From Albidovulum sp. (GTDB taxonomy: Bacteria; Pseudomonadota; Alphaproteobacteria; Rhodobacterales; Rhodobacteraceae): a stretch of 49,159 nucleotides of DNA. The stretch lies in NCBI GenBank assembly GCA_041739655.1, contig JBGSNN010000462.1, forward strand, positions 1-49,159, read 5' to 3'. Numbering within the stretch: the stretch's first letter is position 1; each line of letters begins with the position of its first letter. Positions 17,562 through 49,117 of this stretch are shown here, in pieces. The notes beneath the pieces were generated by a model. That model made no database searches. It was not told the origin of the DNA and saw nothing but the letters and a program-made list of their open reading frames with translations. A program made the position numbers and the translations under genes.

Positions 17562-17571
17562 AGGATCCCCC

Positions 17572-29562: not shown

Positions 29563-30219
29563 TCAGGCCCGCCGCGACAGCATAAGGGCAGCGCAGAGCA
29601 CACCCGCGACGAACCCGCCGAGATGCGCCTGCCAGGCGAGGGTGCCGGCCATAGCCCACCAAAGGGCCAGGTTCAGAAGGGCGATCGCCCCGGCCGACTG
29701 CAGCACCGGCAGGATGCTGCGGTGCCGCTGGCGAAGTTGTGCTGCAGTCAAGACCAGGAACGCCGCCGCCAGCCCGAAGATCGCCCCCGAAGCGCCGACC
29801 ATCGGCGCGCCGTCAGAGGTCAGCCAGCCGAAGGCCAGCCCGCCGCCGATCTGCGACAGGGCGTAGAGCAGGAGAAACGATCCGGTGCCGAAGCGCGGCG
29901 CGAGGACCGCGCCGAAGGCGATCAGCGTCGCCATGTTGAGCGCGAGATGCGACAGCCCGCCATGAAGAAAGCCGTAGGTCGCGAACATGGCGACGGTCTG
30001 GCCGGGATAGCTCGGCTGCCAACCGTGCATCAGTCCGGACCAGAAGGCACCGTATTGATAGGCCGTCAGCCGCCAATCGGGGTGCCCCCAGATCCCCAGA
30101 TCGGCAAGCGTCAGAGCTGCCTCGGGAAGCGCCGAGGCACCGACCAGTAGCCAGACGACGGCGGGAACCGCACGGCGTGACGGGGCGCGGGTCGTGGCCA
30201 ACGGGTCAGAACGGGACAA
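29563..30219 (-). CDS. Rhomboid intramembrane serine protease
   Basis: [18 protein letters not shown] (catalytic Ser), AHLGG (catalytic His); start uncertain, overlaps the end of xrtD. Confidence 0.88.
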
Positions 30220-31804: not shown

Positions 31805-31958
31805 GCGCGGGATCGTCCGAAATCGTCATGCGGGGACAAGCTACCCAATTTGCAGCGGAAATGCGACACTCAACACCGCAGACGCACTGAACTTTGCGTC
31901 ATCACGCGCATTTTGGTTCCAAACCCCGCGCGAAACGCTGATCCGCGCCGGGATTGCA

Positions 31959-33443: not shown

Positions 33444-33457
33444 GCGATTTGCCCTTT

Positions 33458-34090
33458 TTATTCGAAGAGTTTTCGCTCCGGCGCCACAATGACATCACCA
33501 TCCCGAAGCACGATCACCGGCGCCTGTACCCCGGCTTGTACTGCTTTGTAGTTGTAGTTGTACACCGTTTCAGTCCCGGTCTTCTTGTTCGGCCGACGCA
33601 ACTGGATACGTTTTGTCGCCGCAAAGCGGCTCAGGCCGCCCGTCTCGGCAAGAAACTGCAAGATCGTCGTGCCGGATTTCACGTCGATCTTGCCTTGGGT
33701 ATTGAACTCGCCCATCGCGTAGACCGACACGGTGTCGTAGGGCTGATAGTTGGCTGCGACCGACTGTGCGGCGGCATTGTTCAACGCGCTCGTCACCGGG
33801 TTCAACTGACCGACCGAGAGATAGACGGTTGGCGGGGCGGCGAAGTTCGATGCCAATGCAGTCGAAATCGCACTCTTCATCGCCTCGACGCTCTTGCCGG
33901 AGGCCCGCACCGAACCAACGAGTGGCAGGCTGATCGTGCCATCGGGCAAAACCATCAGGCTGCGATTGAGGCTTGGATCCTCAAGCACCTCCATTTGCAG
34001 CACATCGCCCGGCTGGATGCGATAGCCCTGCGCCAGCGCGGCGGGGGCAAGAAGAGCGGCCAGGATGAGGCCGAGAAGGGTTCTGAGCAT
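33458..34090 (-). CDS. wza: Polysaccharide export (OPX) protein, short form
   Basis: YRIQPGDVL, VLPDGTISLPLVG, SLBB domain, LRDGDVIVAP; type I signal peptide with no lipobox. Confidence 0.9.
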   Translation of the reverse strand: MLRTLLGLILAALLAPAALAQGYRIQPGDVLQMEVLEDPSLNRSLMVLPDGTISLPLVGSVRASGKSVEAMKSAISTALASNFAAPPTVYLSVGQLNPVTSALNNAAAQSVAANYQPYDTVSVYAMGEFNTQGKIDVKSGTTILQFLAETGGLSRFAATKRIQLRRPNKKTGTETVYNYNYKAVQAGVQAPVIVLRDGDVIVAPERKLFE

Positions 34091-34220
34091 AGTAACACCC
34101 CGAGTTTCGAATCGTAGCAATCCTATGCCTACATGTTGCTTTATCAAACTGTTAACTCCCATTCCTCATTCATTCCACCCTGCGTAAAGCACATCGTGCC
34201 CGTTCAGCAACACAGGTCGG

Positions 34221-36674
34221 TCAGTTGCTGATAGTGACTCCTGCCGCTTCAAGAGCGTCGATTTCGGTCTGCGCCGCCGCAACGAAGTCCGGGCGCGGCC
34301 CGTCGGACGGGATCAGTGTCATCATGCGGTTGAACTGCGCCAGCGCCTCGCGTTGCTTGCGCTGTGCAAGATAGACCATGGCGAGATGATATTGGACCGA
34401 TGCGTCTTCGGGCAGCCCGGCCGCCGCCTTGACGAGTTCCGCTTCCGCCTCGTCATGGCTGCCGCGCAGGTAGGCGATCCAGCCGTAGGTATCCTGAAAC
34501 GCCGGGACCGTGCTGCCGCGCAGACGCCGGGCGATCAGTTCGGCGCGGTTGAGGCTGTCGGGATCGTTGCCGTGAACTGACAGAAGGCTCGCCAGATTGT
34601 TCGCGACGATCGGGTTGCCGCTGTTTTCCTTGTAGAGCCCCTCGTAGATTTCGATGGCGCCGGTATAGTCGCCCTTGCGCTCCAGCACCCCGGCCTTGGC
34701 CCACTTCAGTTCCGGCTGATCGGGGGCAGTTTCCTGCGCCTTGGCGATCAGCGCCTCGGTCTCTGTCGTCCTCTGCGGATCGGAGGCGACGATGCGGACC
34801 AGCGCAAGCCAGGCCTGAACACGCGTTGCATCGTCTTCGACGAGCGTGCGCATGGTGGCTTCGGCGACCTTCAGATTGCCGACCAGAAGCTGGACCGATC
34901 CGTTGATGAACTGCAACTCAGGGTCATCGGGCGCTTCGTGCAACATCTGGTTGGCATAGGCGAGGGCACGGTCGATGCGATCATTCGCGATGTAGGTCCT
35001 GAGAAGCGCGACGCGGGTGCCAAGATCGGCGTTGCCGCCGTCAACCAGGCCCTGAAGATAGCCGATGGCCTCATCGCCTTTTTGCTGTCCGCTCAGCGCC
35101 GCGGCGCGAAGCGTCACGGCGGCGCTGCGTTCATTCGCACCAGTGCCGGCCGCAAGCTGGTCGGCGACGGCATTGGCGCGGGGCCAGTCCTGCATGGCGA
35201 CGTAAATCTGCCCGAGCGGGATCAGAAGGCCTGCATTGCCGGGCGACAGGCGGAGTGCGTCAATGATGACGCTTTCGGCCTGCACAAGCTTGTTGTCGGT
35301 GGCGAGGAACTGGGCATATCGCAGCGATTCATCCGGCGCACGGTTGGACGCATTGACCGCGAGTGACAACATCTCGCGCATCAGGTCGCGGTTGCCGTCG
35401 CGCTCATAGGCCTGCGCCATGAGGGTCATCAAGGCGGCATCGTTGGGGTTGTCGTCGATCGCCTCGCGCAGGATCGCGATGGCGTCACCCACCTTGTCGT
35501 CGCGGATGAACCATGTCGCTTTCAATTTCAGCGCTTCGACGGCGCCGGAATCCTCGGCCAGGACTTCGTCCACCAGCCCGTGCGCCTCGTCTTCCTGGCC
35601 TGTCGCGGTCAGCATCCGGGCCAGACCCATCTTGATGCGCCGCGCATCGTCCGCATCCTTGCTGGATTGCAGCACGCTGCGCATGTCCGCAATCGCCTTG
35701 TCGCGCTCGCCGAGGTCAAAGAGAAAGCCCGCGCGGGCAGAGCGGAAGATTGGCGTCGTGGCTCCGCCCGCGATGACAGTGTCAAGCTCATCGACGGCGA
35801 TCTTGGTGGAGCGGTGCTCGGCCAGGAACCGGATCAGGGCGAAGACAGGTTCCACTTCCGGCGCCGCGAGGTCGATGCGGCCGCGCAGATGCGTCTCAGC
35901 CTTGTCCAGCAATCCGCGCGCTACATACCAGCGGACGAGCGTTTCGCTCATCTCCGGCGCGTCCGGAAAGCGGGCGACCATGTCGAGAAGCCCCTGTTCC
36001 ACCGCCTTCTCATCCCCGAGCGCGGACAGGACGGCCATGCGCTGGGCGAAAAGCTGGCGGTCTTTCGGCTCCAGCATGATCGCGGCGTCGATTTCGGCGA
36101 GGGCGGCGTTGAAGCTCTGCGCGCGCAGCAGATCGTCGATTGCAACGCGGCGCAAGAGGATGTTCTCAGGCAGTCTATCACGCAGGTCGCGCACCCGCTT
36201 CATCGCATCGACGATGCCGGCCGAGTCATTCGCCTCGGTCGCTGCGCCATAATCGGCAGCGGCCTTGATGGCAAGAAGCTCGGGATTTCCTGGGGCAAGA
36301 CTGACCGCCGGGGTGACATAACGCTGGGCCACGTCCCAGTCGCCGTTTGCCACAGCCATTCCAGACAGGGCCTGAAGCGCCTCGAGGTCGTCGGGATATT
36401 GCTCGATCAGCCGCAGATACTGCGAGAAGGATTCGCGCAGGTTGCCTCTGTCGCGTTCGACATGGGCATATGCGCGGCGCGCCTCCTTGTGCTCTGCGTT
36501 GAACTTGAAGACGTTGCGGAACTCGATCAGTGCGCGGTCGACATCGCCCTTCTCAAGATAGGCCACCCCGGACTGATAGAACTTTTCGGCGCGATCCTTG
36601 GCGGAATCGCAAGCCGCAAGCGCCATCAGGCTGACCGCGAGCACGGTCGAAACCAGGGTCCTCCGAAGGGTCAT
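34221..36674 (-). CDS. TPR-repeat lipoprotein (PrsT-like, exosortase system)
   Basis: Lipobox LAAC; tandem TPRs; NNLASLL...DTYGWI motif near the C-terminus. Confidence 0.85.
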   Translation of the reverse strand: MTLRRTLVSTVLAVSLMALAACDSAKDRAEKFYQSGVAYLEKGDVDRALIEFRNVFKFNAEHKEARRAYAHVERDRGNLRESFSQYLRLIEQYPDDLEALQALSGMAVANGDWDVAQRYVTPAVSLAPGNPELLAIKAAADYGAATEANDSAGIVDAMKRVRDLRDRLPENILLRRVAIDDLLRAQSFNAALAEIDAAIMLEPKDRQLFAQRMAVLSALGDEKAVEQGLLDMVARFPDAPEMSETLVRWYVARGLLDKAETHLRGRIDLAAPEVEPVFALIRFLAEHRSTKIAVDELDTVIAGGATTPIFRSARAGFLFDLGERDKAIADMRSVLQSSKDADDARRIKMGLARMLTATGQEDEAHGLVDEVLAEDSGAVEALKLKATWFIRDDKVGDAIAILREAIDDNPNDAALMTLMAQAYERDGNRDLMREMLSLAVNASNRAPDESLRYAQFLATDNKLVQAESVIIDALRLSPGNAGLLIPLGQIYVAMQDWPRANAVADQLAAGTGANERSAAVTLRAAALSGQQKGDEAIGYLQGLVDGGNADLGTRVALLRTYIANDRIDRALAYANQMLHEAPDDPELQFINGSVQLLVGNLKVAEATMRTLVEDDATRVQAWLALVRIVASDPQRTTETEALIAKAQETAPDQPELKWAKAGVLERKGDYTGAIEIYEGLYKENSGNPIVANNLASLLSVHGNDPDSLNRAELIARRLRGSTVPAFQDTYGWIAYLRGSHDEAEAELVKAAAGLPEDASVQYHLAMVYLAQRKQREALAQFNRMMTLIPSDGPRPDFVAAAQTEIDALEAAGVTISN

Positions 36675-36788
36675 CAACTTCCTCTTATGCGCTTGCATCA
36701 CGGCAGATAAGCGAAGACCGCGGCGCGAATATGGCAACAGTGTCAGTTACAGAAGGGTGTTTGCACAAAAAACAGCACCAACGTCAAC

Positions 36789-37478
36789 TCAATAGCCCGT
36801 TCCCCTCAGAACGACACTCACGGTTGCCCAGAGAAGCCAGAGATCGTTTCGAAACGACAGAGTCTCATCGTACTCGGTGTCATATTCGGCCCGCTTGGAA
36901 AAGGCGCTTTCGTTGCGGTCCGAGACCTGCCAAATCCCGGTGATGCCGGGGCGCAAGCGGTAGTAGGACAGGCCATGATAGAGCGGGCGTTGGCTCGGCA
37001 TCATCGGGCGTGGCCCGACGAGGGACATGTCGCCGATCAGTACGTTCCAGAGCTGTGGCAGTTCATCGAGCGACGTCTTGCGCAGAAAACGGCCGAAACG
37101 GGTGATCCGCGGATCGGATTTGAGTTTTTGCGTACTGTTCCATTCCAGCCGGGCTTCGGCATTCCGCGACAGATATTCCTCAAGCATCGCGTCGGCATTC
37201 GGCACCATGCTGCGCAGCTTCAGCATCCGGAAATTGCGTCCGCCACGCCCGACCCGATCGTTCCAGTAGAATGGGTTTGATCCATCGAAGGAGACTATCA
37301 GTGCCATCAGGATGATCAGGGGTGCAACCACAACTCCGCTGATCACGACCGCCGAGATATCGAACAGCCGCTTCAGGTAGTTGCGATAGAGGCCGGAACG
37401 GAAAGGAACAGTCACCAAGCCCACCGGAGCGCTCGCCATATCAATTTCGTCTGACAATTCATTCAACTGAAGCGTCAT
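36789..37478 (-). CDS. Priming sugar transferase (small phosphoglycosyl transferase)
   Basis: KRLFDI, KLRSM, DPRITRFGRFLRKTSLDELPQLWNVL.GDMSLVGPRP, RPGITG.WQV. Confidence 0.95.
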   Translation of the reverse strand: MTLQLNELSDEIDMASAPVGLVTVPFRSGLYRNYLKRLFDISAVVISGVVVAPLIILMALIVSFDGSNPFYWNDRVGRGGRNFRMLKLRSMVPNADAMLEEYLSRNAEARLEWNSTQKLKSDPRITRFGRFLRKTSLDELPQLWNVLIGDMSLVGPRPMMPSQRPLYHGLSYYRLRPGITGIWQVSDRNESAFSKRAEYDTEYDETLSFRNDLWLLWATVSVVLRGTGY

Positions 37479-37952
37479 ACGCTCACTCCGCTCGCATCAC
37501 CGCTTACCCCCCGACACGCCGACAAGAGACGTGTCAAACATCACAAGAACCTATAGTGTGGCAGCATCACTGTTTGCCTGCATAGCATTTTCTGCAACGT
37601 GGCGAAAACAACAAATCCAACGGCGTTCGCAGGTACGCGTCATTGCGCCGCCCCGGTGGCCGATTCCCGCCCGTTTTATGCGTCCAGCCCAAGATATTGA
37701 GAATATTCCGTTTCCTAACAGGCAACAGAGGATGAGTTCGGTCCGGTTTTGTGCGAGCCCTGCCGCGGCGCAGCGTCACGCATCCGGTCGATTCGCGGGC
37801 TTGCGCGGCAACACTCTGGCGCGCGGCGAAACTCTGCCATTAATCTGCCGAAGTTCTGGGACAGTTACCCCGTGAACTCGACCCGAAAAAGGGGTATCAG
37901 TCTTGCAAGTGGGGCGATATTTCCTACCTGCCTTCGGAAGATGGATTGTTGA

Positions 37953-38843
37953 ATGAACAAGGTCGTGGAGACCGGAGCGGAAGAAACCAGCAGCGTCGGC
38001 TTCTACATGGATTTCTTCGGATTCCGCGAGCGTCCGTTCACGCTCGTTCCCGATCCAGATTTCCTGTTTTGGTCGGCGCAGCACCGGCGTGCCTATTCGG
38101 TGCTCGAATTCGGCATTCTCTCGCGCGCGCCGATCACGCTTGTGACCGGTGGTGTCGGCTGCGGCAAGACCACCCTCCTGCGCGAGCTTCTGCGTCAGTT
38201 TGGCTCTAAGGTGACAGTCGGGCTGATCTCGAACGCGCAGGGTGGCCGGGGTGAACTGATCCAGTGGGTGCTGAATGCGCTCGACGTGCCGTTCGACCCA
38301 CACGCGACCTATGTCCAGCTCTTCCAGCAGCTTCAGGACTACCTTATAGAGGAATACGCCGCCGGCCACCGTGTCGTCCTCATCTTCGATGAGGCGCAGA
38401 ACCTGTCTCGCGAAAGCCTTGAGGAACTGCGGATGCTGACCAATATCAACTCCGGCAAGGATGAGATCATTCAGCTCGTGCTCGTCGGTCAGCCGGAACT
38501 GCGGGAACTGGTGCTCGATCCCTCGCTCAGGCAGCTCGCGCAACGGATCGCCGCCAGCTTCCACCTCTTGCCGCTGGACGAAAAATCCGTCGCGGAACTG
38601 ATCGCGCACCGGCTTCGGGCCGCAGGCGGGACCGGGGAGGAGATCAGACCCGACGCCGCGCGCATGATCTACCGGCATACCCATGGTGTGCCGCGTCTGG
38701 TCAATCAATTGTCAGACATGTCGCTGCTCTATGCTTGGAGCATGGACCATCATCATGTAGACGAACACGTCGTGCAGTCCGTCCTGGACGATGGCGTGTT
38801 TTTCGCGGCACAGATCGCGGCGGAAGAAGAGAAGCGGAAATGA
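37953..38843 (+). CDS. ExeA-like AAA ATPase of exosortase/EPS loci
   Basis: FGFRERPFTLVPDPDF, GGVGCGKTT, IFDEAQ, LVGQPEL, GVPRLVN. Confidence 0.9.
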   Translation: MNKVVETGAEETSSVGFYMDFFGFRERPFTLVPDPDFLFWSAQHRRAYSVLEFGILSRAPITLVTGGVGCGKTTLLRELLRQFGSKVTVGLISNAQGGRGELIQWVLNALDVPFDPHATYVQLFQQLQDYLIEEYAAGHRVVLIFDEAQNLSRESLEELRMLTNINSGKDEIIQLVLVGQPELRELVLDPSLRQLAQRIAASFHLLPLDEKSVAELIAHRLRAAGGTGEEIRPDAARMIYRHTHGVPRLVNQLSDMSLLYAWSMDHHHVDEHVVQSVLDDGVFFAAQIAAEEEKRK

Positions 38844-40372
38844 ACCTCGACCTGTCCTTCTATTTTGCGGTCTTTCTGAGACGTATTCACTACTTCATTC
38901 TCGTCTTCGCACTGGTCACGGCCTCCGCGCTTGCGGCCGCCTATCTGTTGCCGGCGGTCTATACGGCGCGGGCGACGCTGATCGTGGAAAGCCCGCAGAT
39001 TCCGGGACAGTTGCTGCCGCCCAGCGTTCAGGCTCAGGCGCTGGAGAAGCTCCAGATCGCGCAGAAGAATCTGATGCGCCGCGTCAATCTTCTGGACATC
39101 GCGCAGAAGCTTAAGGTTTTTAAAGATATCGACAAGATGAGCCCGGACCAGATCGTTCAGGCGATGGCCGACAATACCCGTATCAACAACTTCGCCGCGA
39201 GGGGCGCGGCGACGATCATGAACATCGAGTTCGATGGTCAGACCGGCCCAAAGGCTGCCGCAGTCGTCAATGAATACGTCACGATCGTGCTTTCCGACGA
39301 CGCGCAGACGCGCAAGACCAACGCAGAAGGTTCAGTCGCATTCTTCGAAGCTGAGAAAAAGCGTCTGGATGGTGAGTTGAGCGCGATGAGTGCGAAGCTG
39401 CTCGCCTTCCAAAACGAAAACAAGGACGCGCTGCCCAATACGCTCGCGTATCGCCTGAGCCAGCAGCAGCTTCTACAGGATCGTCTGGCGGTCGCGGAAC
39501 GCGATATTGCGACGCTCAGGGACCAGAAGGCCCGGATGATCGCACTTTTCGAGGCGACCGGGCAGTTGAGTGGCACCACGGTCAACCAGACGCCCGAGGC
39601 CCGACAGCTCGATGCGCTTCGGCAGCAACTGAACTCCTCGCTTGCCTTGCTTTCGCCGACCAATCCAAAGGTAAAGCAACTTCAGGCGCAGATTGACCAG
39701 CTTTCCAAGGTGGTCGAGGCGCAGCAGGTTCCGCCCGGCGCCGCAGGAACGCCGATGTCGCCGCTTGATATCCAGATCGCGACGATTGATACGCAGATCG
39801 CGGCGCTGGACGAGCAGCGCAAGCAGCTTATCGAACAGCTTGCCGCCCTGAAGGACTCGATCGACCGCACGCCCGCCAACCAGATCGCGCTCGATGCCAT
39901 GACCCGCGATTTTCAGAATATCCAGGCGCAATACAACTCGGCGGTCCAAAAGCAGGCGCAGGCATCGAACAACGAACAGGTCGAGCTTTTGTCCAAGGGC
40001 GAGCGGATCACTGTGGTCGAAGCTGCGAGCGCGCCGGATACGCCGACCAAACCCGACCGCATGAAGATCGCAGCGGGCGGTGTCGGCGCCGGGATTCTGC
40101 TGGGCGGTGGCCTGATCTTCCTTCTGGAGCTCCTGAACCGCTCGGTCCGGCGGCCCAAGGACCTCGTCAAGAGTTTCGGGATCGTGCCGCTGGTCACGAT
40201 CCCCTACATGCGCACGCCATCGGAGATGATGAAGCGCCGCAGTGGCTTTGTCGCGTTGCTTCTGCTGGCGGTGGTGGGCATTCCGGCGGCGATCTACGCG
40301 GTTCATGTCTATGTTGCCCCGCTTGACTATATCTTCGGCAAGGTCGCCGAAAAGCTTGGCCTGAGGCTCTGA
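38840..40372 (+). CDS. Polysaccharide co-polymerase (GumC / Wzc N-terminal part)
   Basis: N-terminal TM, LPAVYTARA, long coiled coil, GERITVVEAA..P..P.KP, C-terminal TMs. Confidence 0.9.
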   Translation: MNLDLSFYFAVFLRRIHYFILVFALVTASALAAAYLLPAVYTARATLIVESPQIPGQLLPPSVQAQALEKLQIAQKNLMRRVNLLDIAQKLKVFKDIDKMSPDQIVQAMADNTRINNFAARGAATIMNIEFDGQTGPKAAAVVNEYVTIVLSDDAQTRKTNAEGSVAFFEAEKKRLDGELSAMSAKLLAFQNENKDALPNTLAYRLSQQQLLQDRLAVAERDIATLRDQKARMIALFEATGQLSGTTVNQTPEARQLDALRQQLNSSLALLSPTNPKVKQLQAQIDQLSKVVEAQQVPPGAAGTPMSPLDIQIATIDTQIAALDEQRKQLIEQLAALKDSIDRTPANQIALDAMTRDFQNIQAQYNSAVQKQAQASNNEQVELLSKGERITVVEAASAPDTPTKPDRMKIAAGGVGAGILLGGGLIFLLELLNRSVRRPKDLVKSFGIVPLVTIPYMRTPSEMMKRRSGFVALLLLAVVGIPAAIYAVHVYVAPLDYIFGKVAEKLGLRL

Positions 40373-40414
40373 GCGCGGTCCGGCACGATGCTGAATTCGG
40401 AAGGTTGATTGAGA

Positions 40415-41233
40415 ATGGAAAAACTCGAAGCGGCACTGGCGAAGGCGCGTGAAATGCGCCGCAGCGCGCTCGGCGGCCCCGAGGCACCGCGCGGCAAGGC
40501 GGCGCCCGCGCAGGTGCCGTCGGAATGGGCGGCCCTGCCCGAGATCGTGCTGCCAGAGGGCAATGCCGAACGGTACCGCATCACCGCGTTGACGAGCGGC
40601 AAGTTCGCGGCACCCTACGACATGCTGCGTTCGCGCACGATCCGCACGATGAAAGACAAGGGTTGGAGCCGCCTGGCGATCACATCGCCCGAGGCTGGCT
40701 GCGGCAAATCGACCGTCTCGCTGAACCTAGCGCTGTCGCTCTCGCGTCACAAGGATCTCAGGGTGGTTCTGATGGATTTCGACTTCCGGCGCCCCTCGCT
40801 GCACCGCACCCTGGGCCACAAGCCGGAAAAATCGCTGCATGAGTTCCTCGACGGCAAGGCCGCTTTCGAGGACTGCGCGGTTCGTATGGGCGAGAACCTG
40901 ATTATCGCTCTGAACGCGACTGTCAGCAGCCATCCCGCAGAGCTTTTGCAGAGCCAGGCGACGCGCGATGCGCTCGACGCCGTTGAGCGGCGCTGGCGTC
41001 CCGATGTGATGCTGTTCGACATGTCTCCGATGCTGGCAAGCGACGACAATGTGGGATTTCTCAACAATGTGGATTGCGCGCTTCTCGTCGCCGCAGCGGA
41101 AAGCACGACATTGCCCAATATCGATATCTGCGAGAAGGAAATCGCCAGCCTGACCAATGTCCTTGGCGTCGTCCTCAACAAGTGCCGCTACGCTGACGAT
41201 TCTGTAGGCTACGACTATGGCAGCTATCAATAG
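40415..41233 (+). CDS. CpsD/CapB-family BY tyrosine kinase
   Basis: ITSPEAGCGKS, DFDFRRP, LFDMSP, GVVLN, Tyr-rich tail YADDSVGYDYGSYQ. Confidence 0.92.
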   Translation: MEKLEAALAKAREMRRSALGGPEAPRGKAAPAQVPSEWAALPEIVLPEGNAERYRITALTSGKFAAPYDMLRSRTIRTMKDKGWSRLAITSPEAGCGKSTVSLNLALSLSRHKDLRVVLMDFDFRRPSLHRTLGHKPEKSLHEFLDGKAAFEDCAVRMGENLIIALNATVSSHPAELLQSQATRDALDAVERRWRPDVMLFDMSPMLASDDNVGFLNNVDCALLVAAAESTTLPNIDICEKEIASLTNVLGVVLNKCRYADDSVGYDYGSYQ

Positions 41234-41280
41234 GACGACAAGGCAGTTGCCATCAGCGGAGGGGCAGCCCTGACAAAATG

Positions 41281-41306
41281 AAAAGGCCGGGCGACTGCCC
41301 GGCCTT
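41281..41306 (-). terminator. Intrinsic terminator of the VPLPA-CTERM gene
   Basis: AAGGCCGGGC-GACT-GCCCGGCCTT hairpin with a T-rich run on the minus strand; sits between convergent genes. Confidence 0.7.
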
Positions 41307-41326
41307 GTTAGTTGCAGTCAGTTCCT

Positions 41327-41998
41327 TCAAGCTGCCTTGCGCCTACGACGCAGAGCAGCAAGGCCACCGAGACCGCCAAGCAACAGCAGGCCTGCCGCGG
41401 GGACCGGGACCGGCGCAAGGCCTATACCCGCCAACGCACCATCTGCGAAGCCGACATTGTCGTTGGTGCTGAGGATTGTGAAGAAGATCTCACTCACCAG
41501 GATCGGCGCGAAAGTCGAGGAGGCAAAGCCGCCGCGGTTGTTGCCGATCACATCCGTCGCGTAGGTCGATACGATCGGGAAACCGCCGTTGATGGAGGAC
41601 ATCGCCACTTCCTGCGATGAGCCGTCCTTGGCGACGAAGAGATCGAGGAAGTAGAGCGCGTTCACCAGCACCGGCGCGCTGAAAGACACGCGGATCCACT
41701 CTTGGCTTCCGTTCGCGAAGGTCGTGATCTCATCGTCCTTCACTCCGACGCCATATCCGTCGGTCTGGAATGCCAGACCCGAGGCCTGCGTCGCGGCGGT
41801 CGATTTGCCGTCGAACGCCTGAGAGTTGTTCAGCGGACCGCTCGCGGTCATGTTCCACGACACCGAACCACCGAACAGCGACCCGCTGGCACCCGTTGAT
41901 GCCTTCGTGAAGTCGATCGAATAAGCATTTGCCGCAGCGGCACCCACCGCCATCGCAGCGCCAGCAATTGCGCCAGCCATCATCTTGTACCCGAACAT
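41327..41998 (-). CDS. VPLPA-CTERM sorting domain protein (XrtD substrate)
   Basis: Signal peptide; C-terminus PVPVPAAGLLLLGGLGGLAALRRRRKAA (motif, TM, basic tail). Confidence 0.92.
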   Translation of the reverse strand: MFGYKMMAGAIAGAAMAVGAAAANAYSIDFTKASTGASGSLFGGSVSWNMTASGPLNNSQAFDGKSTAATQASGLAFQTDGYGVGVKDDEITTFANGSQEWIRVSFSAPVLVNALYFLDLFVAKDGSSQEVAMSSINGGFPIVSTYATDVIGNNRGGFASSTFAPILVSEIFFTILSTNDNVGFADGALAGIGLAPVPVPAAGLLLLGGLGGLAALRRRRKAA

Positions 41999-42350
41999 AA
42001 CCACCCCTTCCGAAAATTAGTCAGCAAGCTCCATCCTGAGTACTTTACCACATTTAGCGTGGGGGGGAACACGCGAGTGCCACAATTCTTCCTTTTTCTG
42101 GCTCCCCCTGCCAGATTTCAACCATAGCGTGTTTTCCTAGTCTTTTATTAGCCTTAAGGGGTGCATTTGAGCAAACTCACCCAGAAGGCGAAACATATTC
42201 TCGCCACAATTCCGGGACGGTCTTTGCCAGATTGCGGCATCGTTTCCAAATCGTGGAAAGGCTAAAGTGGCGTCAGATCGCGATTGCAGCGTCGCAGCGA
42301 AGTTGTCAGACCGGAAAGGCAACCTCGAAGCGCGAATCCGAGCCTGAAAC

Positions 42351-43226
42351 ATGACCTCAAACCACGTTGTCATCATTCCCCACTTCAATGATTCGCGGCG
42401 CCTGACGCGCTGCCTGACGGCGCTGACCGCGGAGGACTGCAAGGGTGTAGAGATCCTCGTCGTTGACAACGCCTCGACCGAACCGCTCGACGCGATCGCA
42501 GCCCGCTTTCCCGGCGTGCGATTCGTGACCGAGCCGCTGGCGGGCGCGGCCAACGCCCGCAATCGTGGCGTGGCGGACAGCACCGCGCCGAACCTCTTCT
42601 TTCTCGACGCCGATTGCGTGCCGGCTCCGGGCTGGATCGCCGCTGCCAAGGCGTCGGTCGGCCGCGCGGACCTTGTCGGCGGGGCGATCGATGTGTTCGA
42701 CGAGACCCCGCCACCGCGCAGCGGCGCGGAGGCCTTCGAGACGGTTTTTGCCTTCAACTACAAAGACTATATCGAGCGCAAGGGCTTTTCCGTCACCGCC
42801 AACCTGCTCACGACACGCCCGGTCTTCGAGACGGTCGGCCCCTTCGTTCACGGGCTTTCGGAGGATGCCGAGTGGTGTCTTCGCGCGCGCGACAAGGGCT
42901 TTCGTCTGGTGCTTGCCGAAGACCTGCGCGTGGCGCATCCGACGCGGTCGGACTGGCCGGCCCTGAAGAAGAAGTGGCGGCGCATCACGCGCGAGATGTT
43001 CGGTCTGCACATGGCGGGGCATCCCGGTCTGATCGGGCGCGCGCTCTGGTTTCTCCGTGCCTGGGCGGTCGCCGCAAGCGGCCTTGTCCATCTGCCGAAG
43101 GTGCTGGCCCATCCGCGTCTCAGGGACGCGGGCGAGCGTTGGCGCGGCGCGCTGACGCTCCTGCGCCTCAGGTTGCTGCGCGCGGGCTGGATGATGGCTC
43201 AGGCCCTCGGCCTCAGCGGGCGCTGA
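42351..43226 (+). CDS. GT2 glycosyltransferase
   Basis: VIIPHFN, VVDNAS, GAANARNRG, FLDAD, SEDAEW. Confidence 0.9.
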   Translation: MTSNHVVIIPHFNDSRRLTRCLTALTAEDCKGVEILVVDNASTEPLDAIAARFPGVRFVTEPLAGAANARNRGVADSTAPNLFFLDADCVPAPGWIAAAKASVGRADLVGGAIDVFDETPPPRSGAEAFETVFAFNYKDYIERKGFSVTANLLTTRPVFETVGPFVHGLSEDAEWCLRARDKGFRLVLAEDLRVAHPTRSDWPALKKKWRRITREMFGLHMAGHPGLIGRALWFLRAWAVAASGLVHLPKVLAHPRLRDAGERWRGALTLLRLRLLRAGWMMAQALGLSGR

Positions 43227-43408
43227 CCGCTCGGCTGTTGGGGCGTTCGCAGCACTGCCGACTTCTTAATCCCGGCCGACGGAAACTGTGGCGCTTCTGA
43301 GCGGCCGGTCCGGTCGCTTGCACTGCCACGATGCCGCCCGCCGTGTCCTGCCTTTCTTGTCGGAAAGTCGTGGCCAAGGGTGGCGATTTGCCTTGGAGGC
43401 CCTGAAGA

Positions 43409-43669
43409 ATGGACAAATTTTCTGACTATCCGACGAACCTGACCGCGCCGGGCCGGGATGCGTCATCCGTCGCGCCGGACGACCTGAACGACCTGCCGGT
43501 CACGCCGCGCGCGCTTTTTGTCGGCCAGGGCGGTATCGTGACCGTCCGGATGGCAGGCGGTCAGGACGTGTCGTTCGAGAACGTGCAGGGCGGGACAATC
43601 CTGCCGATCCGCGCGCGCCGCGTGATGGCGACAGGAACCACGGCCAGCGCGATGATCGCGCTTTGGTAA
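43409..43669 (+). CDS. ghsA: GTA/phage head-spike base protein (RcGTA rcc01079/GhsA family)
   Basis: 86 aa, GGAGG RBS; MDKF...L.APG...V.PDD.NDL..TPRALFVGQGG.V.V...G.ILPIRARRVMATGTTA follows the rcc01079 family pattern as I recall it. Confidence 0.85.
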   Translation: MDKFSDYPTNLTAPGRDASSVAPDDLNDLPVTPRALFVGQGGIVTVRMAGGQDVSFENVQGGTILPIRARRVMATGTTASAMIALW

Positions 43670-43686
43670 TTAGACGCACCGCAGCG

Positions 43687-43724
43687 AAGAAAAACGGCGC
43701 GGGTCTCCGCGCCGTTCTTTTTTT
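43687..43724. terminator. Bidirectional intrinsic terminator
   Basis: A-rich run, AACGGCGCGG-GTCT-CCGCGCCGTT stem, then CTTTTTTT; lies between the convergent ghsA-like and spike-like genes. Confidence 0.85.
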
Positions 43725-43742
43725 GACCTGCGATCCTGGTGC

Positions 43743-45983
43743 TCAGATCGCGTTCGCCCCCAGTTTCCAGGCATCGGCGTTGGCAAGTGCCGCCGGCCCG
43801 GTGATCGCCTTGTAGGGGGCGGCGGCGGGCAGGGTGCCCGCGCCCGTGACGCTGTGCCAGACGCGCGCGTATTCCACATCACCGATGAATTGCAGCGTGG
43901 CGTTGTTCCGGGCAAGGAAGCTGAGCGCCCGGTTGCTCTGGAAGACGCCATTGCCATTGGTGATGAAGGGAACGGTGGCGACGACGCTGCCGTTGATCGC
44001 GACGATGACGTTGTGGGCCACATGGTCCGTAGCGACGACCAGATCGTACCATACGCCAGCCGCGATGCCGGCCGCCAGAATGTAGTTGTTCAAAGTCTTT
44101 ACTCCTGCGCCGTCCTTCACGTTCAACCGCAGGCTGCCGCTGTTCATCAGTTCCACATCGCAACTGATCGCGGCTTGCGCGAAGAGAATGACGGTCCCGC
44201 TGCTTGGCAGTGCCGGAACCCGGAACCGCGCCGCAAAGGTGATCCCGGTGACCCCCGCAGGCACATTGACGGGGTCGAGGAAGTAGGGACCCGTGGCCCC
44301 CGTCGCAAAGCTCGCCGCGGTTGCGGGCAGCGTGTTGGCCAGCACCGAAGTGTCCGGCATCGCGCTGACCGGAATACCATCGAGCCCAGCGACGCCGAAA
44401 TCGACGATCGGCAGGTTCTTCCAGACCTCGGCGCTGTAGTCCTCGGGGAACTTCAGCGCGCCGCTCGCGCCGCCCTCGCCGAAACGCAGCACATCGGCAT
44501 GTGTGAAGACGCCCGCATTAGGGAAGATCCTGACCCGGCCCGCAACGATCTGCGTCGATTGCGCGGGCTGGCCATTGATCTGGAAGCCCATGACGGTGGT
44601 CCAGTGCGCAAAGCTTGCACCAAGCGCCGCTTCTCCGCGCGCCAGCCGCGTTGTCGTGACCGGTCCGGCCGAGGACCAGACCTCGACCCAGGCCCCCGAC
44701 GGCTCCCAAAGAGCGTTGTCGAAGACCGGCACCGGCCAGCCGACAAGTCCAGCCGATTGCAGGATTGCCGCCGCGGTGAGCCGCGCAAAGGCCTGCCGGC
44801 CGTCCGCCGTCACGCCCGAAGGATGCGCATAGTCGGTCCAGCCGCCCGCGCCGTCGTCGGTGCCGTTGACATAGGTCAGGGGCTCAAGCCCGCGCGGCAG
44901 GAACATGGTCGCGTCGGGCAGTTGCAGCATCGCCCGCCAGCTTGCCCGCGCGGCCTGCTTGTTGACAAGGTTGGCCTGCGCCGCGCCGCCGACATAGTGG
45001 GTCGCATCGACCAGATCGGCGTCGATGTCGAACCGGTGCGGGCCGTAGGGAACCCATCGGGTATGGGCGTAGTCGTAAATCTCGCCGAACCAGTGGTCGG
45101 CATGATAGCTCAGGCCGGACCCGTAGTTGACCGTCCCAGGGATGGTGACTGCCGCGCCAGCGGTCGTCTTGCCCGAGAACAGCGGAAACAGTGCCTCGCC
45201 GTAGCTGGCACCAAGGCTGCTCGGTGCGGCAAACCATGACATGGCGGCAAGTCCGACGTGCTGGCCGTCCGCCGTCGCGAAGTCGTGCAATGCCTTGTCG
45301 GTAGCCCACGACCGCGCGGGATCGCTGTCGTTCACCAGCGCGCGCGGATCGGTGCCCGAGACGGTCTGGAAGATGACCGCGAATTTCTCGCCAGGCCGGG
45401 CGGAAATCAGCGTGTCTGCAAGGGCCGCCACGGCGGAGGTGTAAGGCGCGCCCTGACGCACGAAATGCTGCTGCGGCGTCGTGGCGGCGCCAAAGATGAT
45501 CTGCACCGCCTCATCGTCCGCGACGGTCGGCGCTGGAGCCAGATCCTGAAAGGTCGACAGAATCCGCTCGGGTTCGGACTGGCCCCAGATCGCAATGACA
45601 TGGCCGACACCAAAGCGGGTGTTGCCCTGGGCGCTGACCACGGGTGTCGCCTTCAGCCGCACCTGTGGCCGATACCATGAGGCGGAGCGCGGCACCGTCA
45701 TGGTGCCGCTCCAGATCCCGGCGCCGTCAATGGTCGCGACATCAGCCCAGGCGGTCGAGGTGAGCCCTCCGTCATCGACGGACTGCGCCCGCGCTTCGAC
45801 GATCTCGCCCGCCGTGCCGGTGCCCGTCAATGCGACGACCGCGCTGTTGCGGCCGAAGCCCGCACCACTGTCGAAGAGCGTCCGGTCGCGCGAAAACGCG
45901 GTGACCGAGACGGTGCCGAGGGCGATCGGCGGCGTGCCCTGGCCCGAGCTCTGGGTAATCGATAGCGCAGATAGTGAGATCAT
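43743..45983 (-). CDS. Putative head-spike fibre: N-terminal docking peptide, SASA/SGNH esterase-like domain, C-terminal LamG/ConA-like lectin
   Basis: Start re-assigned to MISLSALSIT (GGGGA RBS), 746 aa, no signal peptide or TM; VGHVIAIWGQSE (SASA block I), DYAHP (D-x-x-H), LamG-like WYDLVV...INGSVV...FIGDVEYARVW. Confidence 0.6.
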   Translation of the reverse strand: MISLSALSITQSSGQGTPPIALGTVSVTAFSRDRTLFDSGAGFGRNSAVVALTGTGTAGEIVEARAQSVDDGGLTSTAWADVATIDGAGIWSGTMTVPRSASWYRPQVRLKATPVVSAQGNTRFGVGHVIAIWGQSEPERILSTFQDLAPAPTVADDEAVQIIFGAATTPQQHFVRQGAPYTSAVAALADTLISARPGEKFAVIFQTVSGTDPRALVNDSDPARSWATDKALHDFATADGQHVGLAAMSWFAAPSSLGASYGEALFPLFSGKTTAGAAVTIPGTVNYGSGLSYHADHWFGEIYDYAHTRWVPYGPHRFDIDADLVDATHYVGGAAQANLVNKQAARASWRAMLQLPDATMFLPRGLEPLTYVNGTDDGAGGWTDYAHPSGVTADGRQAFARLTAAAILQSAGLVGWPVPVFDNALWEPSGAWVEVWSSAGPVTTTRLARGEAALGASFAHWTTVMGFQINGQPAQSTQIVAGRVRIFPNAGVFTHADVLRFGEGGASGALKFPEDYSAEVWKNLPIVDFGVAGLDGIPVSAMPDTSVLANTLPATAASFATGATGPYFLDPVNVPAGVTGITFAARFRVPALPSSGTVILFAQAAISCDVELMNSGSLRLNVKDGAGVKTLNNYILAAGIAAGVWYDLVVATDHVAHNVIVAINGSVVATVPFITNGNGVFQSNRALSFLARNNATLQFIGDVEYARVWHSVTGAGTLPAAAPYKAITGPAALANADAWKLGANAI

Positions 45984-46204
45984 GTGGTGTCCCCGCTGGC
46001 GGAACGGACGCCACAGGCAAAGCCGGCCAGACCGGAAGACCATCGGCGCTCGTCCGGTGGATGGCGCCGGGGGCGGCCCCGCCCATGCGCCGGATCGCGC
46101 CTGCGGCAGGGACCGCCCCGACAACTTGCGTCTGGTGAGATAGCATTGCGCGGACTGGCGTTGCGATCGCTCACCCTTGGGCGTGCGGGCGGTTAAGACG
46201 TTGC

Positions 46205-46894
46205 TCAGCGGCAGCTCGGCCCGAAGGATCGGGCGATATAGGCTGCAAGCGCGGGGACGATCACCCGCGCTTCTGCCGCTGCGGCGGGATGCAGCCCGTC
46301 GGGCAGGTCGGTCGCCCGCGGATCGTTCAGCCAGCGTGTTCTGCCATCGAAAAAGCCGACGCCTTCAGCGGCTGCAACAGCGCGTGGGACCTCGGAGTAG
46401 CGGCCAAGGAACGGCCGCTGCCACCGGCGCAGACCGCGTACCGGGTTGGTTGACATCAGCACCACGGCCGCACCGGGCCTGGCCTCTCTCAGCGCGGCGA
46501 CGATCCCGCGCAGGTTCTCCTCGGAGCGGTCGAGCGCTGTTCCGTCGAAGAGATCAGCATCATTGACCGAGAATTCGACCAGAACCAGATCAGGCAGTTG
46601 CGCCGCCACCGCCGCCACCTGGCCCAGTCCCCAGTCCGAACTGGCGCCCGCCTTGGCGACGCTGGTCAGGTTGACGGCAACGCCAAGACAGGTCGTCAGG
46701 TCTCGCGCCACTTGATCCGGCCAGACCCCGTTCTGCGTCAGGCTTGTGCCCAGCGCCACGATCCGCAGAACGCCCGCGGGCAGCGCCCGTTCCGTCAGGG
46801 GAAGATCCTGCGGTGTGGTGCCATCGTTGGAGGAGAGAAAGAGATGGGCCAGGATCGCGCAACCGGCGAGAAGCGCGACCCCCCGGCGCCGCAT
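46205..46894 (-). CDS. SGNH/GDSL hydrolase family protein, N-terminal anchor or signal
   Basis: ALGTSLT, AGASS, EFSVND, DGLHP. Confidence 0.88.
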   Translation of the reverse strand: MRRRGVALLAGCAILAHLFLSSNDGTTPQDLPLTERALPAGVLRIVALGTSLTQNGVWPDQVARDLTTCLGVAVNLTSVAKAGASSDWGLGQVAAVAAQLPDLVLVEFSVNDADLFDGTALDRSEENLRGIVAALREARPGAAVVLMSTNPVRGLRRWQRPFLGRYSEVPRAVAAAEGVGFFDGRTRWLNDPRATDLPDGLHPAAAAEARVIVPALAAYIARSFGPSCR

Positions 46895-46896
46895 CT

Positions 46897-47406
46897 TCAG
46901 GCGAGGCCCTGTTCGGCCAGTGCGCTTTCCCGCGCGTCCGCGTCGCTGAAGCGACCGTAGGCGCCGACCTCGATCCCCGAGCGGATTACCTTCGCCGGAT
47001 TGCCCGCGACGATCGACCGGGGCGGCACCGATTTCGTCACGACCGAACCCGCGCCGACGACGCAGTTGTCGCCGATCTCCACCCCCGGCAGGATCAGGCT
47101 TCGCCCGCCGATGAAGCAGTTCTCGCCGATCCGCGTGTGCAGATAGAGACCGCGTGTACGGTCATGCGTCAGCAAGCGCGATTCAAAGGCGACATAGGAC
47201 TGCGCGCCAACGTGGATGCCAACAGGAAAGGTCCGGTCGAACTTTGCCGACAGCGAAAACTGCGCGGTCGGATGAATGTCCATCTTCCAGACCCGGACCA
47301 GATAGGCGCGCTTGATGTCCACCAGAAGGTTGCGGAGCCCGCCAAGCCGGTTCAGCCCGCGTTTCTTCGCCTTCTGCATCGGTTGCGCGGTTGCGCCGTC
47401 GCTCAT
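46897..47406 (-). CDS. Left-handed beta-helix acyltransferase (O-acetyltransferase-like)
   Basis: Start MSDGATAQ after GGAGG; [36 protein letters not shown]. Confidence 0.9.
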
Positions 47407-47971
47407 GCCCGTCGTGCCTCCATGTTGATCCGCGCTCCCTCGTTCGATCGTACCGCCGTCGTCCGAATGCCATTTGCGCACATCGAACCAGACCAAGGGC
47501 GGCCAGGCCGCCCGCAACTGGTGGTCAGGCAGAGCGTTGCCCGGTTTCGCAAACCTGGATTGGGCAACGCCTGACCGTCCCCCAGCATGAAAGGAGCCTA
47601 CAGGAAGAAGAAGTGGAAGGGCTAGATGATGCCGAAATAAAGCCTGACGGGCGCTCAGCCGGTATTGTTGAGCCCGAGAATAGAGCCCATCGTTTGGATA
47701 CAATGTCGACTTTTAGGCTGTAGAGGCGCGAAAGCCTGAACACTGAACGAACTCGAGGCCGATGTCGGATTGCAATTTGCGGTATTAGCGCTATGCCGGA
47801 ACCTGGCCCCCGTGGTGCGAGACGCGATTAGCCAGCCGCGCTTGCCGAACGCGGGATGCACCCGGCGACAGGCCATCCGAGTCGCCGCAACGATAGTGAG
47901 AATTCCGAGTGACGCGGGCCATCAGCATCTCTGCTTCGTTTTCGCCCGTTGAGGCATTGCAATCCGATGCC

Positions 47972-49117
47972 ATGGCAGAGGCAATACGCCCGAATCCACG
48001 CCTTCGCACCCTTCTCGCCGCGCCGGTCGAACGCTCGGGCATCAGTCACACCTGCTGGTCGATTCTTCAGGCCGCCGCCGAGGTTGGCCATACCCCGACG
48101 CTGCACGCCGCGTTCGTGCGTCGTGGTTCGCCTGCCGCCTTTCCGGTGACAACGGTCCTGCCCGGACCCGCGACCCTCTTGCCCTTTGATCTTCTCAAGC
48201 CGCTGGCGCAGGCCGCGCTTCACGCCCGCTTCCTGTCGTCGCTCGCTGCCGGCGACGTGGCCTATCTTTGGCCGGGCGTCCCGCTGCGCACCTTCAAGGC
48301 TGTCGCGCGGCGCGGCATTCCCATCGTGACCGAGGCGGTCAACACCCGGATGGCCGTGGCGCGGGATATTCTCGACGCCGCCTATGACGCGCTCGGCGCG
48401 GCGCCGGAGCACGGGATTACCGACGCGCGTATCGCCATGCAGGAGGAACGCAACGCGCTCTGCGCCGCCATCTTCGCGCCGAGCGCCGGTGTCGAGGCGT
48501 CATATCGTGCGACAGGCTATGCGGCCCGCGTCGTCCCTGCGGGTTTTGGAACCTGGGTGCCGGCGGACCTGCCGCAGCGCCTGCCTGCGCCGGGCCGACC
48601 GGTGCGTTTCCTCTTCGTCGGACGCGATGACGTGCGCAAGGGCCTGCATCGCCTGCTCGAGGCCTGGCGAGAGCCGCCCGCCGACGCGGAACTTCGGATC
48701 GTCGGGGAGATTTCGCCGCTGATCCGGCGGCTCTTTGCGGATGTCCTGAACCTGCCCTCGGTCTCTGCGGGCGGGTTTCGCGCCGATATGACCGCAGAGT
48801 ACCGCGCCGCAGATGTCGCTGTCCTGCCCTCGTTTGAGGAAGGCGATCCGATCGTGACCTATGAGGCGGCAGCCCACGGCCTGCCGGTGATCGCCTCGGT
48901 CCCCGGCGCGGGCCGTTTCGGGGCCGAGACCGGAGTCGTGGAGATCGTTGATCCGCAGGATCTCGGGGAGCTCCGTGCCGCACTGGCGACCTATGCGTCG
49001 GATGAGGAACTGCGCCGCGAGAAGGGCGCACTCAGCCGTGCGGCGTCGCTGGCCTATGACTGGTCGCGGGTCGCGCCGGCCCGGCTCGACCGGCTCTTCG
49101 CCTTTCTCGCGCGCTGA
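47972..49117 (+). CDS. GT4 glycosyltransferase
   Basis: FLFVGR...KGL, ADVAVLPSFEEG...YEAAAHGLPVIAS, YDW. Confidence 0.88.
   Translation: MAEAIRPNPRLRTLLAAPVERSGISHTCWSILQAAAEVGHTPTLHAAFVRRGSPAAFPVTTVLPGPATLLPFDLLKPLAQAALHARFLSSLAAGDVAYLWPGVPLRTFKAVARRGIPIVTEAVNTRMAVARDILDAAYDALGAAPEHGITDARIAMQEERNALCAAIFAPSAGVEASYRATGYAARVVPAGFGTWVPADLPQRLPAPGRPVRFLFVGRDDVRKGLHRLLEAWREPPADAELRIVGEISPLIRRLFADVLNLPSVSAGGFRADMTAEYRAADVAVLPSFEEGDPIVTYEAAAHGLPVIASVPGAGRFGAETGVVEIVDPQDLGELRAALATYASDEELRREKGALSRAASLAYDWSRVAPARLDRLFAFLAR

What the first reader, a model, noticed from the sequence alone, without database searches (positions are those of the whole stretch)
43409..45983. Gene-transfer-agent head-spike pair embedded in the capsule locus: candidate lock-and-key cassette
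Seen: an isolated virion-type gene (86-aa GhsA/rcc01079-like spike base) sits among glycosyltransferases with no other phage genes in the window. It converges on a 746-aa protein across a shared bidirectional terminator. That protein has no signal peptide and starts with a short alternating-hydrophobic peptide (MISLSALSIT) followed by a flexible SSGQGTPP linker. Established (from memory): in Rhodobacter capsulatus GhsA forms the pentameric base on RcGTA capsid vertices, and GhsB (rcc01080, N-terminus about MIALGLGLGL) docks into it and binds the recipient capsule; those genes also adjoin capsule genes, so co-location alone is not new. Inference: here a much longer and apparently non-homologous fibre replaces GhsB, in convergent orientation and in an exosortase-D type locus. 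Capsule type and GTA receptor-binding module would then be inherited and swapped together, giving capsule-type-restricted (kin-biased) gene transfer.
Basis: partly seen in the sequence, partly recalled or inferred. Interest (0 to 1): 0.9.

Follow-up and report, generated by a model that had tools for sequence, protein, structure and literature searches.

The report
Esterase-tipped gene-transfer-agent head spike
Inside a capsule gene cluster sits the socket gene for the head spikes of a virus-like gene transfer particle, facing a large gene that likely encodes the plug-in fibre, predicted to strip acetyl groups off capsule sugars; the proposed swapping of fibre together with capsule type was not seen.

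Summary
43409-43669 is a true GhsA/Rcc01079 spike base, the only copy found, in an XrtD exopolysaccharide locus. The genome also has an RcGTA-like cluster, gafA and the endolysin elsewhere. The convergent 746-aa protein is not a GhsB homologue. It is predicted as a short hydrophobic peptide, a flexible linker, a CE20/SIAE-like SGNH acetylesterase with invariant Ser136/Asp384/His387, and a LamG domain. Genomic evidence that it is the fibre: in three other loci its homologues sit directly behind ghsA with GhsB-like starts, and a phage contig fuses the module to a capsid cement domain. Across the family, the slot behind ghsA holds 22 sequence groups, most starting with the docking-type peptide. 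Against: this protein's own peptide is out of register by one residue and scores weakly, and it has its own promoter-like site. Binding is untested. The lock-and-key swap is not supported in this genus: the fibre follows vertical descent while neighbouring capsule-modifying genes come and go. Family-wide co-variation is weak. The scan noted a similar esterase fibre before in a sphingomonad. Verdict: new variant of a known kind.

The parts
43409..43669 (+). GhsA/Rcc01079-family head-spike base, 86 aa; the only copy found in the genome
   Evidence: NF048002 110.7 bits vs cut-off 28; 6tb9 E 3.9e-11; fold match to 6tb9 and 8cjz; single copy
43266..43269 (+). TTAA, CtrA-half-site-like, 143 nt upstream of ghsA (inferred; TTAA is also common upstream of other locus genes)
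   Evidence: 17 of 19 genus ghsA upstream regions vs 2 of 18 to 12 of 18 for other locus genes; half-sites proposed for ghsA in PMC9638019 (passage)
43687..43724 (.). Hairpin with A-tract and T-tract flanks between the convergent genes; likely bidirectional intrinsic terminator
43743..45983 (-). 746-aa candidate head-spike fibre: peptide, linker, SGNH acetylesterase module, LamG domain
45954..45983 (-). Residues 1-10: conserved hydrophobic N-terminal peptide, candidate docking plug, one residue out of register relative to GhsB
   Evidence: columns 2/4/7/9 are 96/91/92/88% hydrophobic in 77 homologues vs 1-22% in the linker; weak PSSM score
45915..45953 (-). Residues 11-23: variable Pro/Gly/Ser-rich linker, low model confidence
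44346..45914 (-). Residues 24-546: beta-sandwich, SGNH domain, beta-sandwich; CE20/SIAE-like predicted O-acetylesterase with invariant G134-Q135-S136 and D384-x-x-H387-P388
   Evidence: 7kmm Z 18.6, rmsd 5.9, 398 aligned; Foldseek E 5.5e-14; invariant columns
43746..44321 (-). Residues 555-746: LamG/concanavalin-like domain, likely glycan-binding; the most variable domain in the genus
   Evidence: PF13385 27.9 bits vs cut-off 27.6; Z about 17 to pentraxin/LamG; mean distance 0.435 vs 0.261 for the SGNH domain
46140..46164 (-). Conserved promoter-like element GCAAC-N14-TGnTA upstream of the fibre gene
   Evidence: 19 of 19 loci with invariant spacing; differs from the GTA-operon promoter
45984..46060 (-). 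Conserved leader blocks (CCGGACGAG and a hairpin over the ribosome-binding site); possible cis-regulatory RNA, function unknown
   Evidence: 18 of 18 loci carry the first block; no Rfam match here at E<=5
30206..43226 (.). Context: XrtD exosortase, Wza, PrsT-like TPR protein, sugar transferase, ATPase, Wzz/Wzc, VPLPA-CTERM protein, GT2
46205..49117 (.). Context: GDSL/SGNH protein, hexapeptide-repeat O-acetyltransferase, GT4

Best explanation
The 86-aa gene encodes the GhsA-type base for the head spikes of this bacterium's RcGTA-like particle, and the convergent 746-aa protein is likely the fibre that plugs into it in place of GhsB, predicted to be a capsule O-acetylesterase with a lectin-like tip. 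Steps: (1) shown: GhsA family membership and a GTA gene set elsewhere in the genome; (2) inferred from the RcGTA structure: five bases would cap each capsid vertex; (3) inferred from homologue context: residues 1-10 would dock in the pentamer and the linker would hold the body out flexibly; (4) predicted: the LamG domain would bind, and the Ser-His-Asp site would deacetylate, an acetylated surface polysaccharide, most simply the one made by this locus, giving reversible attachment and passage through the capsule as in phage G7C-type esterase spikes. In this genus the pair is a stable, vertically inherited resident of the locus rather than a frequently swapped cassette.
For: GTA genes in the genome: capsid protein vs RcGTA Rcc01687 E 6.3e-197; portal to tail tube, g11-g16 and the g1 end on three contigs; gafA domain 209 bits; endolysin. 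No other fibre candidate was found: NF048003 is below cut-off, and of 47 slot proteins from other genomes only the two of this family and one HTH protein hit the genome. Homologues in the canonical slot: L104 (761 aa, 45% identical over 743 residues, start overlapping the ghsA stop, begins MIGVGIGVG), L052 (1385 aa) and a second G275 copy 28 nt behind ghsA. Unlinked homologues also keep GhsB-like starts (G263, G268). 15 of 16 family genomes with this module have ghsA, against 110 of 300 overall; kin are not independent. The slot is promiscuous: 47 of 100 ghsA loci have a coupled ORF, in 22 sequence groups; 34 of 45 score in the top 5% of 1210 background N-termini in a leave-one-out motif test; 10 are NF048003, 4 SASA, 2 GDSL-like (one under cut-off). 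Virion use of the module: fused to a cement domain between portal and capsid genes in L288, and behind a tail protein in L287. Esterase: invariant residues in 77 homologues and fold match. An O-acetyltransferase or acyltransferase lies in 16 of 19 genus loci.
Against: This protein's own peptide ranks only in the top 22% of background ungapped and the top 5-9% with one gap; 23 of 77 homologues reach the top 5%. It offers four hydrophobic residues, not five. A few homologues begin with a different, non-plug sequence (for example P0110, P0119), and paralogues in four genus genomes lack the peptide. The gene is not coupled to ghsA, and its promoter-like site shares nothing evident with the GTA-operon, lysis or ghsA upstream regions. 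RcGTA base Glu12, which helps attach the base to the capsid (PMC7296036, passage), is Thr here. Esterase-type slot proteins are not enriched beside O-acetyltransferases (2 of 8 vs 8 of 37). Block I reads GQSE rather than GQSN, no QGE block III is visible in the consensus, and active-site geometry was not measured. The genome is 85% complete, so another fibre could be missing.
Confidence: 0.62

Rival explanations
1. The 746-aa protein descends from a spike fibre but in this genus has become a cell-side polysaccharide-modifying esterase that no longer docks on GTA heads; ghsA is an orphan or uses a fibre missing from the assembly.
For: Out-of-register, weak-scoring peptide; own conserved promoter-like site unlike GTA promoters; neighbours are a GDSL protein and an O-acetyltransferase; G317 keeps ghsA and the GTA capsid gene without this protein; many family ghsA loci have no adjacent fibre.
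Against: No export signal is evident. The hydrophobic pattern is kept at 88-96% beside a freely varying linker. The gene is adjacent to ghsA in 18 of 19 genus loci. GhsB-type genes pass the cut-off in only 1 of 24 genus genomes, so no alternative fibre is evident.
Confidence: 0.17
2. One reading: base, fibre and capsule genes form a lock-and-key cassette that is swapped as a unit and restricts gene transfer to cells of the same capsule type.
For: ghsA lies within 8 kb of polysaccharide genes in 51 of 80 family loci vs 4 of 61 control windows of the own genome (profiles were trained on these loci). Pairs of loci with related fibres share a capsule gene at >=45% identity in 3 of 12 cases vs 9 of 339 (permutation p 0.009, not corrected for kinship). 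The fibre tree resembles the Wzz tree. The one genus locus without the fibre has a divergent capsule locus.
Against: No fibre replacement is seen within the genus although modifying genes vary. The fibre tracks the unlinked capsid gene (rho 0.66), and its residual correlation with locus genes (0.17-0.46) is no higher than that of ghsA with four of the same five genes, as plain linkage predicts. 9 of 12 related-fibre pairs share no capsule gene; 29 of 80 family loci have no detected capsule gene; several fibres are unlinked. In R. capsulatus the spike is not obligatory for transfer, and the tail fibre also binds capsule (PMC10218006, passages).
Confidence: 0.13
3. The protein is made with the GTA programme but acts mainly off the particle, released at lysis to deacetylate and loosen matrix, or decorates prophage heads.
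For: A loosely attached, biofilm-degrading RcGTA tailspike is reported (10.64898/2026.07.19.739414, abstract start and passages); ghsA homologues occur in 104 phage records; the weak peptide could mean loose attachment.
Against: The genome shows one HK97 capsid gene, the GTA one; co-induction with lysis is not shown; the conserved plug-plus-linker layout argues for docking.
Confidence: 0.08

Closest known systems
RcGTA head spike GhsA/GhsB (Rcc01079/Rcc01080; PDB 6TB9; PMC7296036, PMC5026251, PMC10218006)
   Same: Same base family, ectopic locus beside capsule genes, GTA cluster elsewhere, partner with a short hydrophobic N-terminal peptide and a flexible link.
   Different: The partner is 746 aa rather than 325, has no NF048003 match, is convergent with its own promoter-like site rather than coupled, has a peptide out of register, and carries a predicted esterase; base Glu12 is Thr.
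CE20 acetylesterase XacXaeA (7KMM; PMC8245568, PMC12313940) and sialic acid esterase SIAE (8F9O)
   Same: Beta-sandwich / SGNH / beta-sandwich layout over residues 24-546 (Z 17-18.6); GQS nucleophile motif and a C-terminal Asp/His motif.
   Different: 10-14% identity; GQSEP rather than GQSNM; DxxH rather than DxH; no 180-residue ancillary domain; extra LamG domain and N-terminal plug; substrate unknown.
Phage SGNH deacetylase receptor-binding proteins (G7C gp63.1; Klebsiella prophage fibres; PMC10743462, PMC13123978)
   Same: Virion-borne removal of O-acetyl groups from a surface polysaccharide as a recognition strategy.
   Different: Those are tail spikes or tail fibres of phages; this would be a head-vertex fibre of a host-encoded gene transfer agent.
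Carin-1 phage spike base (PDB 8CJZ)
   Same: Same base fold.
   Different: A phage capsid; its partner was not compared here.

Membership tests
GhsA / Rcc01079 spike base | Scores above the NF048002 cut-off over the full length | tested here: met
   110.7 vs 28 bits, 85 of 85 positions
GhsA / Rcc01079 spike base | Six-strand jelly-roll like 6tb9 | tested here: met
   best Foldseek hit 6tb9, TM 0.75
GhsA / Rcc01079 spike base | Glu12 that co-ordinates the cation at the RcGTA capsid vertex | tested here: not met
   Thr at that position; a feature of RcGTA itself, not of the family model
GhsA / Rcc01079 spike base | Pentamer on capsid vertices | not testable with these tools
   needs particles; the complex tool takes at most four copies
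RcGTA-like gene transfer agent in this genome | Head-tail cluster, gafA and lysis gene present at separate loci | tested here: met
   the cluster is split over three contigs and most of the terminase gene falls in an assembly gap
RcGTA-like gene transfer agent in this genome | Particles are made and transfer DNA | not testable with these tools
   experimental
GhsB / Rcc01080 family (NF048003) | Sequence match to the fibre domain model | tested here: not met
   no match for the 746-aa protein
GhsB-like functional class (plug-in head fibre) | Strictly alternating five-residue hydrophobic N-terminal plug | tested here: inconclusive
   four hydrophobic positions with a one-residue shift; top 22% ungapped, top 5-9% gapped; strict in 24 of 77 homologues
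GhsB-like functional class (plug-in head fibre) | Encoded directly behind ghsA in one operon | tested here: not met
   convergent here; met by homologues L104, L052 and the second G275 copy
GhsB-like functional class (plug-in head fibre) | Binds the base pentamer and the capsule | not testable with these tools
   experimental
SGNH hydrolase (acetylesterase type) | SGNH fold with block I Ser and block V Asp/His conserved | tested here: met
CE20 | GQSNM block I, DxH block V and an inserted ancillary domain | tested here: not met
   GQSEP, DxxH, no such insert (motifs from PMC12313940 passages)
SGNH hydrolase (acetylesterase type) | O-acetylesterase activity | not testable with these tools
   needs an assay

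The most novel reading that the evidence does not exclude
The GTA head spike is a plug-and-play socket: one conserved base accepts many unrelated cargo proteins through a ten-residue plug, several of them independently recruited O-acetylesterases. GTA heads in this genus walk through an acetylated capsule by deacetylating it, and because the fibre gene rides inside the capsule locus, gene transfer is biased to cells that make a matching capsule.
Probability: 0.22. Interest if true: 0.8.

Novelty: new variant of a known kind. Interest (0 to 1): 0.55.

Why it matters
Hynes et al. 2016 (PMC5026251, passages) found rcc01079 in 9 of 21 Rhodobacterales genomes but rcc01080 only in R. capsulatus, leaving most bases without a known fibre. 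The slot survey here offers an explanation: unrelated proteins that share only an N-terminal plug. It also names the candidate fibre for a genus of culturable bacteria. An enzyme on a GTA head vertex would change the picture of the head spike from passive lectin to active capsule modifier. It would also make the open question of what sets GTA recipient range testable by a Ser136 mutant and by exchanging fibres between laboratory strains. Searches for 'gene transfer agent' + 'acetylesterase' + 'capsule' and for 'head fiber' + 'capsid' + 'deacetylase' + 'phage' + 'SGNH' found 0 papers in the held library. Subscription papers, including Westbye 2016, were not searched or read.

Tried and rejected
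Complex prediction of four bases plus fibre residues 1-30 gave 'no answer' (score 0.02, controls not folded). It is evidence neither way, and the native five-copy ring was not modelled. No RNA holder was listed for the locus. Sequence search of the PDB with the fibre found nothing, and its profile found nothing below E 0.7; annotated phage records gave no match. Profile comparison with a SASA-type slot protein (L077) gave no match, so the two esterase types are not detectably related by sequence. A shared GafA-type motif was sought and not found: the GTA-operon promoter is TTGACT-N17-TATACC-like, the fibre's element also occurs in unrelated genomes of the order and class, and an 11-mer shared with the GTA leader is absent from lysis and DUF2793 leaders. 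The published GafA sites are in a figure that could not be read. The first distance analysis used a wrong RpoB frame and two divergent capsid genes, probably from prophages; RpoB was fixed and G315 dropped, and G301 dropped, whose numbers are the ones used. The RpoB tree (12 genomes) is too poorly resolved to test whether the whole locus moved. The weak NF048003 hit on the VPLPA-CTERM protein (17-19 bits vs cut-off 36) was rejected as noise. Longer starts at 46124 and 46043 were rejected by homologue alignment. The Pa223 preprint describes an unrelated spike.
Full report
Observation. The 86-aa ORF at 43409-43669(+) is a GhsA/Rcc01079-family spike base: NF048002 110.7 bits against a cut-off of 28, E 3.9e-11 to the RcGTA base in 6tb9, and 6tb9 as best fold match. 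It is the only copy found. It lies in an XrtD/VPLPA-CTERM exopolysaccharide locus, and 39 other window ORFs gave no head, tail or lysis family. The 746-aa ORF at 43743-45983(-) converges on it across a hairpin with A/T flanks. Named homologues come from Albidovulum/Defluviimonas and relatives. The genome is 85% complete, in 493 contigs.

A GTA to carry the spike. The single HK97 capsid gene matches RcGTA Rcc01687 at E 6.3e-197. Portal to tail tube, g11-g16 and the g1 end lie on contigs C324, C415 and C84; gafA is on C237 and the endolysin on C186. No GhsB-family gene passes the cut-off; only 1 of 24 genus genomes has one.

Anatomy of the large protein. The model (77 sequences, mean pLDDT 90) has a low-confidence first 20 residues. 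Residues 24-546 match CE20 and SIAE acetylesterases (7kmm E 5.5e-14; Z 18.6, rmsd 5.9, 398 aligned), and 555-746 form a LamG domain. G134-Q135-S136 and D384, H387, P388 are invariant in all 77 aligned homologues, matching the block I and block V motifs described in PMC12313940 (passages). It works like these enzymes by prediction but fails CE20's defining motifs.

Is it the fibre? I fetched 100 ghsA loci: 20 from the relatives draw and 80 of the 128 other places listed, chosen by score and available flank. In 47 of 100, an ATG ORF starts within -8 to +5 nt of the ghsA stop; they run from 115 to 1554 aa and fall in 22 single-linkage groups. Ten are NF048003, four SASA, two GDSL-like, two of this family, one a BNR glycosylhydrolase and one an unrelated HTH protein. 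A motif trained on 45 of them, leaving out this family, recovers 34 of 45 in the top 5% of 1210 background starts. A three-fold alternation pattern occurs in 21 of 47 vs 8 of 1192 background starts. So the slot is defined by the plug, not by the body. Homologues of the window protein sit in that slot in L104, L052 and the second G275 copy. Unlinked copies in G263 and G268 keep GhsB-like starts. Fifteen of 16 family genomes with the module have ghsA, against 110 of 300 overall (only three candidates were scored per genome and kin are not independent). Three viral contigs carry the module: one fused to a cement domain between portal and capsid genes, one behind a tail protein, and one in a long Ig-domain protein before an endolysin.

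Evidence against. The window protein's own peptide has hydrophobic residues at 2, 4, 7 and 9, whereas GhsB uses five alternating ones (PMC7296036, passages). It ranks in the top 22% ungapped and the top 5-9% with one gap. The shifted form is conserved (38 of 77 homologues; the pattern was read off these sequences, so its absence from background is partly circular). In a fast, untested tree it nests among strictly alternating forms. The gene has its own conserved promoter-like element (19 of 19) with no evident link to GTA promoters. Base Glu12 is Thr.

Lock and key. Linkage of ghsA to polysaccharide genes is family-wide: 51 of 80 loci have at least one within 8 kb and 43 have at least two, against 4 and 1 of 61 control windows. 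The R. capsulatus case is published (PMC5026251, PMC10218006; passages). Swapping together is not shown. In the genus ghsA is found in 21 of 24 genomes and the fibre in 22 of 24, and the pair is fixed in 18 of 19 loci while GDSL, acetyltransferase, acyltransferase, GT2 and Wzy-like neighbours vary. Fibre distance follows the unlinked capsid gene (rho 0.66, n 15, p 0.001). Partial correlations with locus genes are 0.17-0.46 and are matched or exceeded by ghsA for four of the five genes, so linkage explains them. Across genera, related fibres share a capsule gene in 3 of 12 pairs vs 9 of 339 (p 0.009, uncorrected for kinship), and esterase fibres are not enriched beside acetyltransferases (2 of 8 vs 8 of 37).

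Mechanism. Most likely GhsA pentamers cap the capsid vertices (inferred from 6tb9), the peptide docks in them (inferred), and the LamG and esterase domains engage and deacetylate an acetylated surface polysaccharide (predicted), as esterase tail spikes do for phage G7C and Klebsiella prophages (PMC10743462, PMC13123978; passages). None of these steps is shown experimentally here.

Novelty. The base and its capsule-locus position are known. A non-homologous, convergently encoded, esterase-bearing fibre was not found in the held library. The scan's own unchecked notes report a coupled esterase fibre in a sphingomonad capsule locus and varied fibres in phages, read after my own tests. Papers were seen as search listings and passages only, plus the text of one supplement (PMC9638019), whose Figure S7 sequences could not be seen and bear on the promoter question. 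Westbye 2016 was not read. Verdict: new variant of a known kind, interest 0.55.

Noticed in passing
window 45984-46060 (- strand): Conserved leader of the fibre gene: a CCGGACGAG block (18 of 18 allowing two variants) whose GGA can pair with the same TCC that otherwise forms a hairpin over the ribosome-binding site; a possible translational switch with no Rfam match.
   Followed up: partly
window 46047-46057 and G000:C84 near 564: The fibre leader block is the reverse complement, at 10 of 11 bases, of a conserved stretch in the GTA-operon leader; the 11-mer occurs 6 times in the genome. A post hoc match, absent from lysis and ghsA leaders.
   Followed up: partly
L029:7467-9509 and equivalents: A secreted-looking beta-helix protein (PF13229) lies divergently upstream of ghsA in 15 of 19 genus loci but is missing from this window; a possible polysaccharide lyase.
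   Followed up: no
L030 / G317: Keeps ghsA and the GTA capsid gene but lacks the fibre and has a strongly divergent capsule locus; no fibre was found with the queries used.
   Followed up: partly
L298-L301 (G008, G312, G318, G324): Paralogues of about 1000 aa with the esterase module interrupted by an insert and no plug peptide.
   Followed up: no
L288:1615-3801: Phage contig in which the same esterase module is fused to a Phage_cement_2 domain inside the head gene block, a second way of putting it on a capsid.
   Followed up: partly
L072, L074, L088, L102, L115: A Cys/Asp-containing variant of the plug peptide (MK-x-x-CDLS type) in several slot proteins.
   Followed up: no
L117:8175-12836 and L100:6265-7866: Slot proteins with a BNR-repeat glycosylhydrolase domain (1554 aa) and a weak CBM5/12 match, suggesting further enzyme or binding cargo types.
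   Followed up: no
window 2625-19247: Sugar catabolism cluster that looks like myo-inositol use (TIM-barrel, oxidoreductase, ABC transporter, LacI, TPP enzyme, PfkB kinase, IolB/KduI, aldolase); the pathway name is recalled, the domains are.
   Followed up: no
L258-L284 upstream regions: A TTAA about 50 nt before the GTA endolysin start in all 23 upstream regions extracted (two offsets longer because the start was mis-picked), consistent with the proposed CtrA half-site.
   Followed up: no
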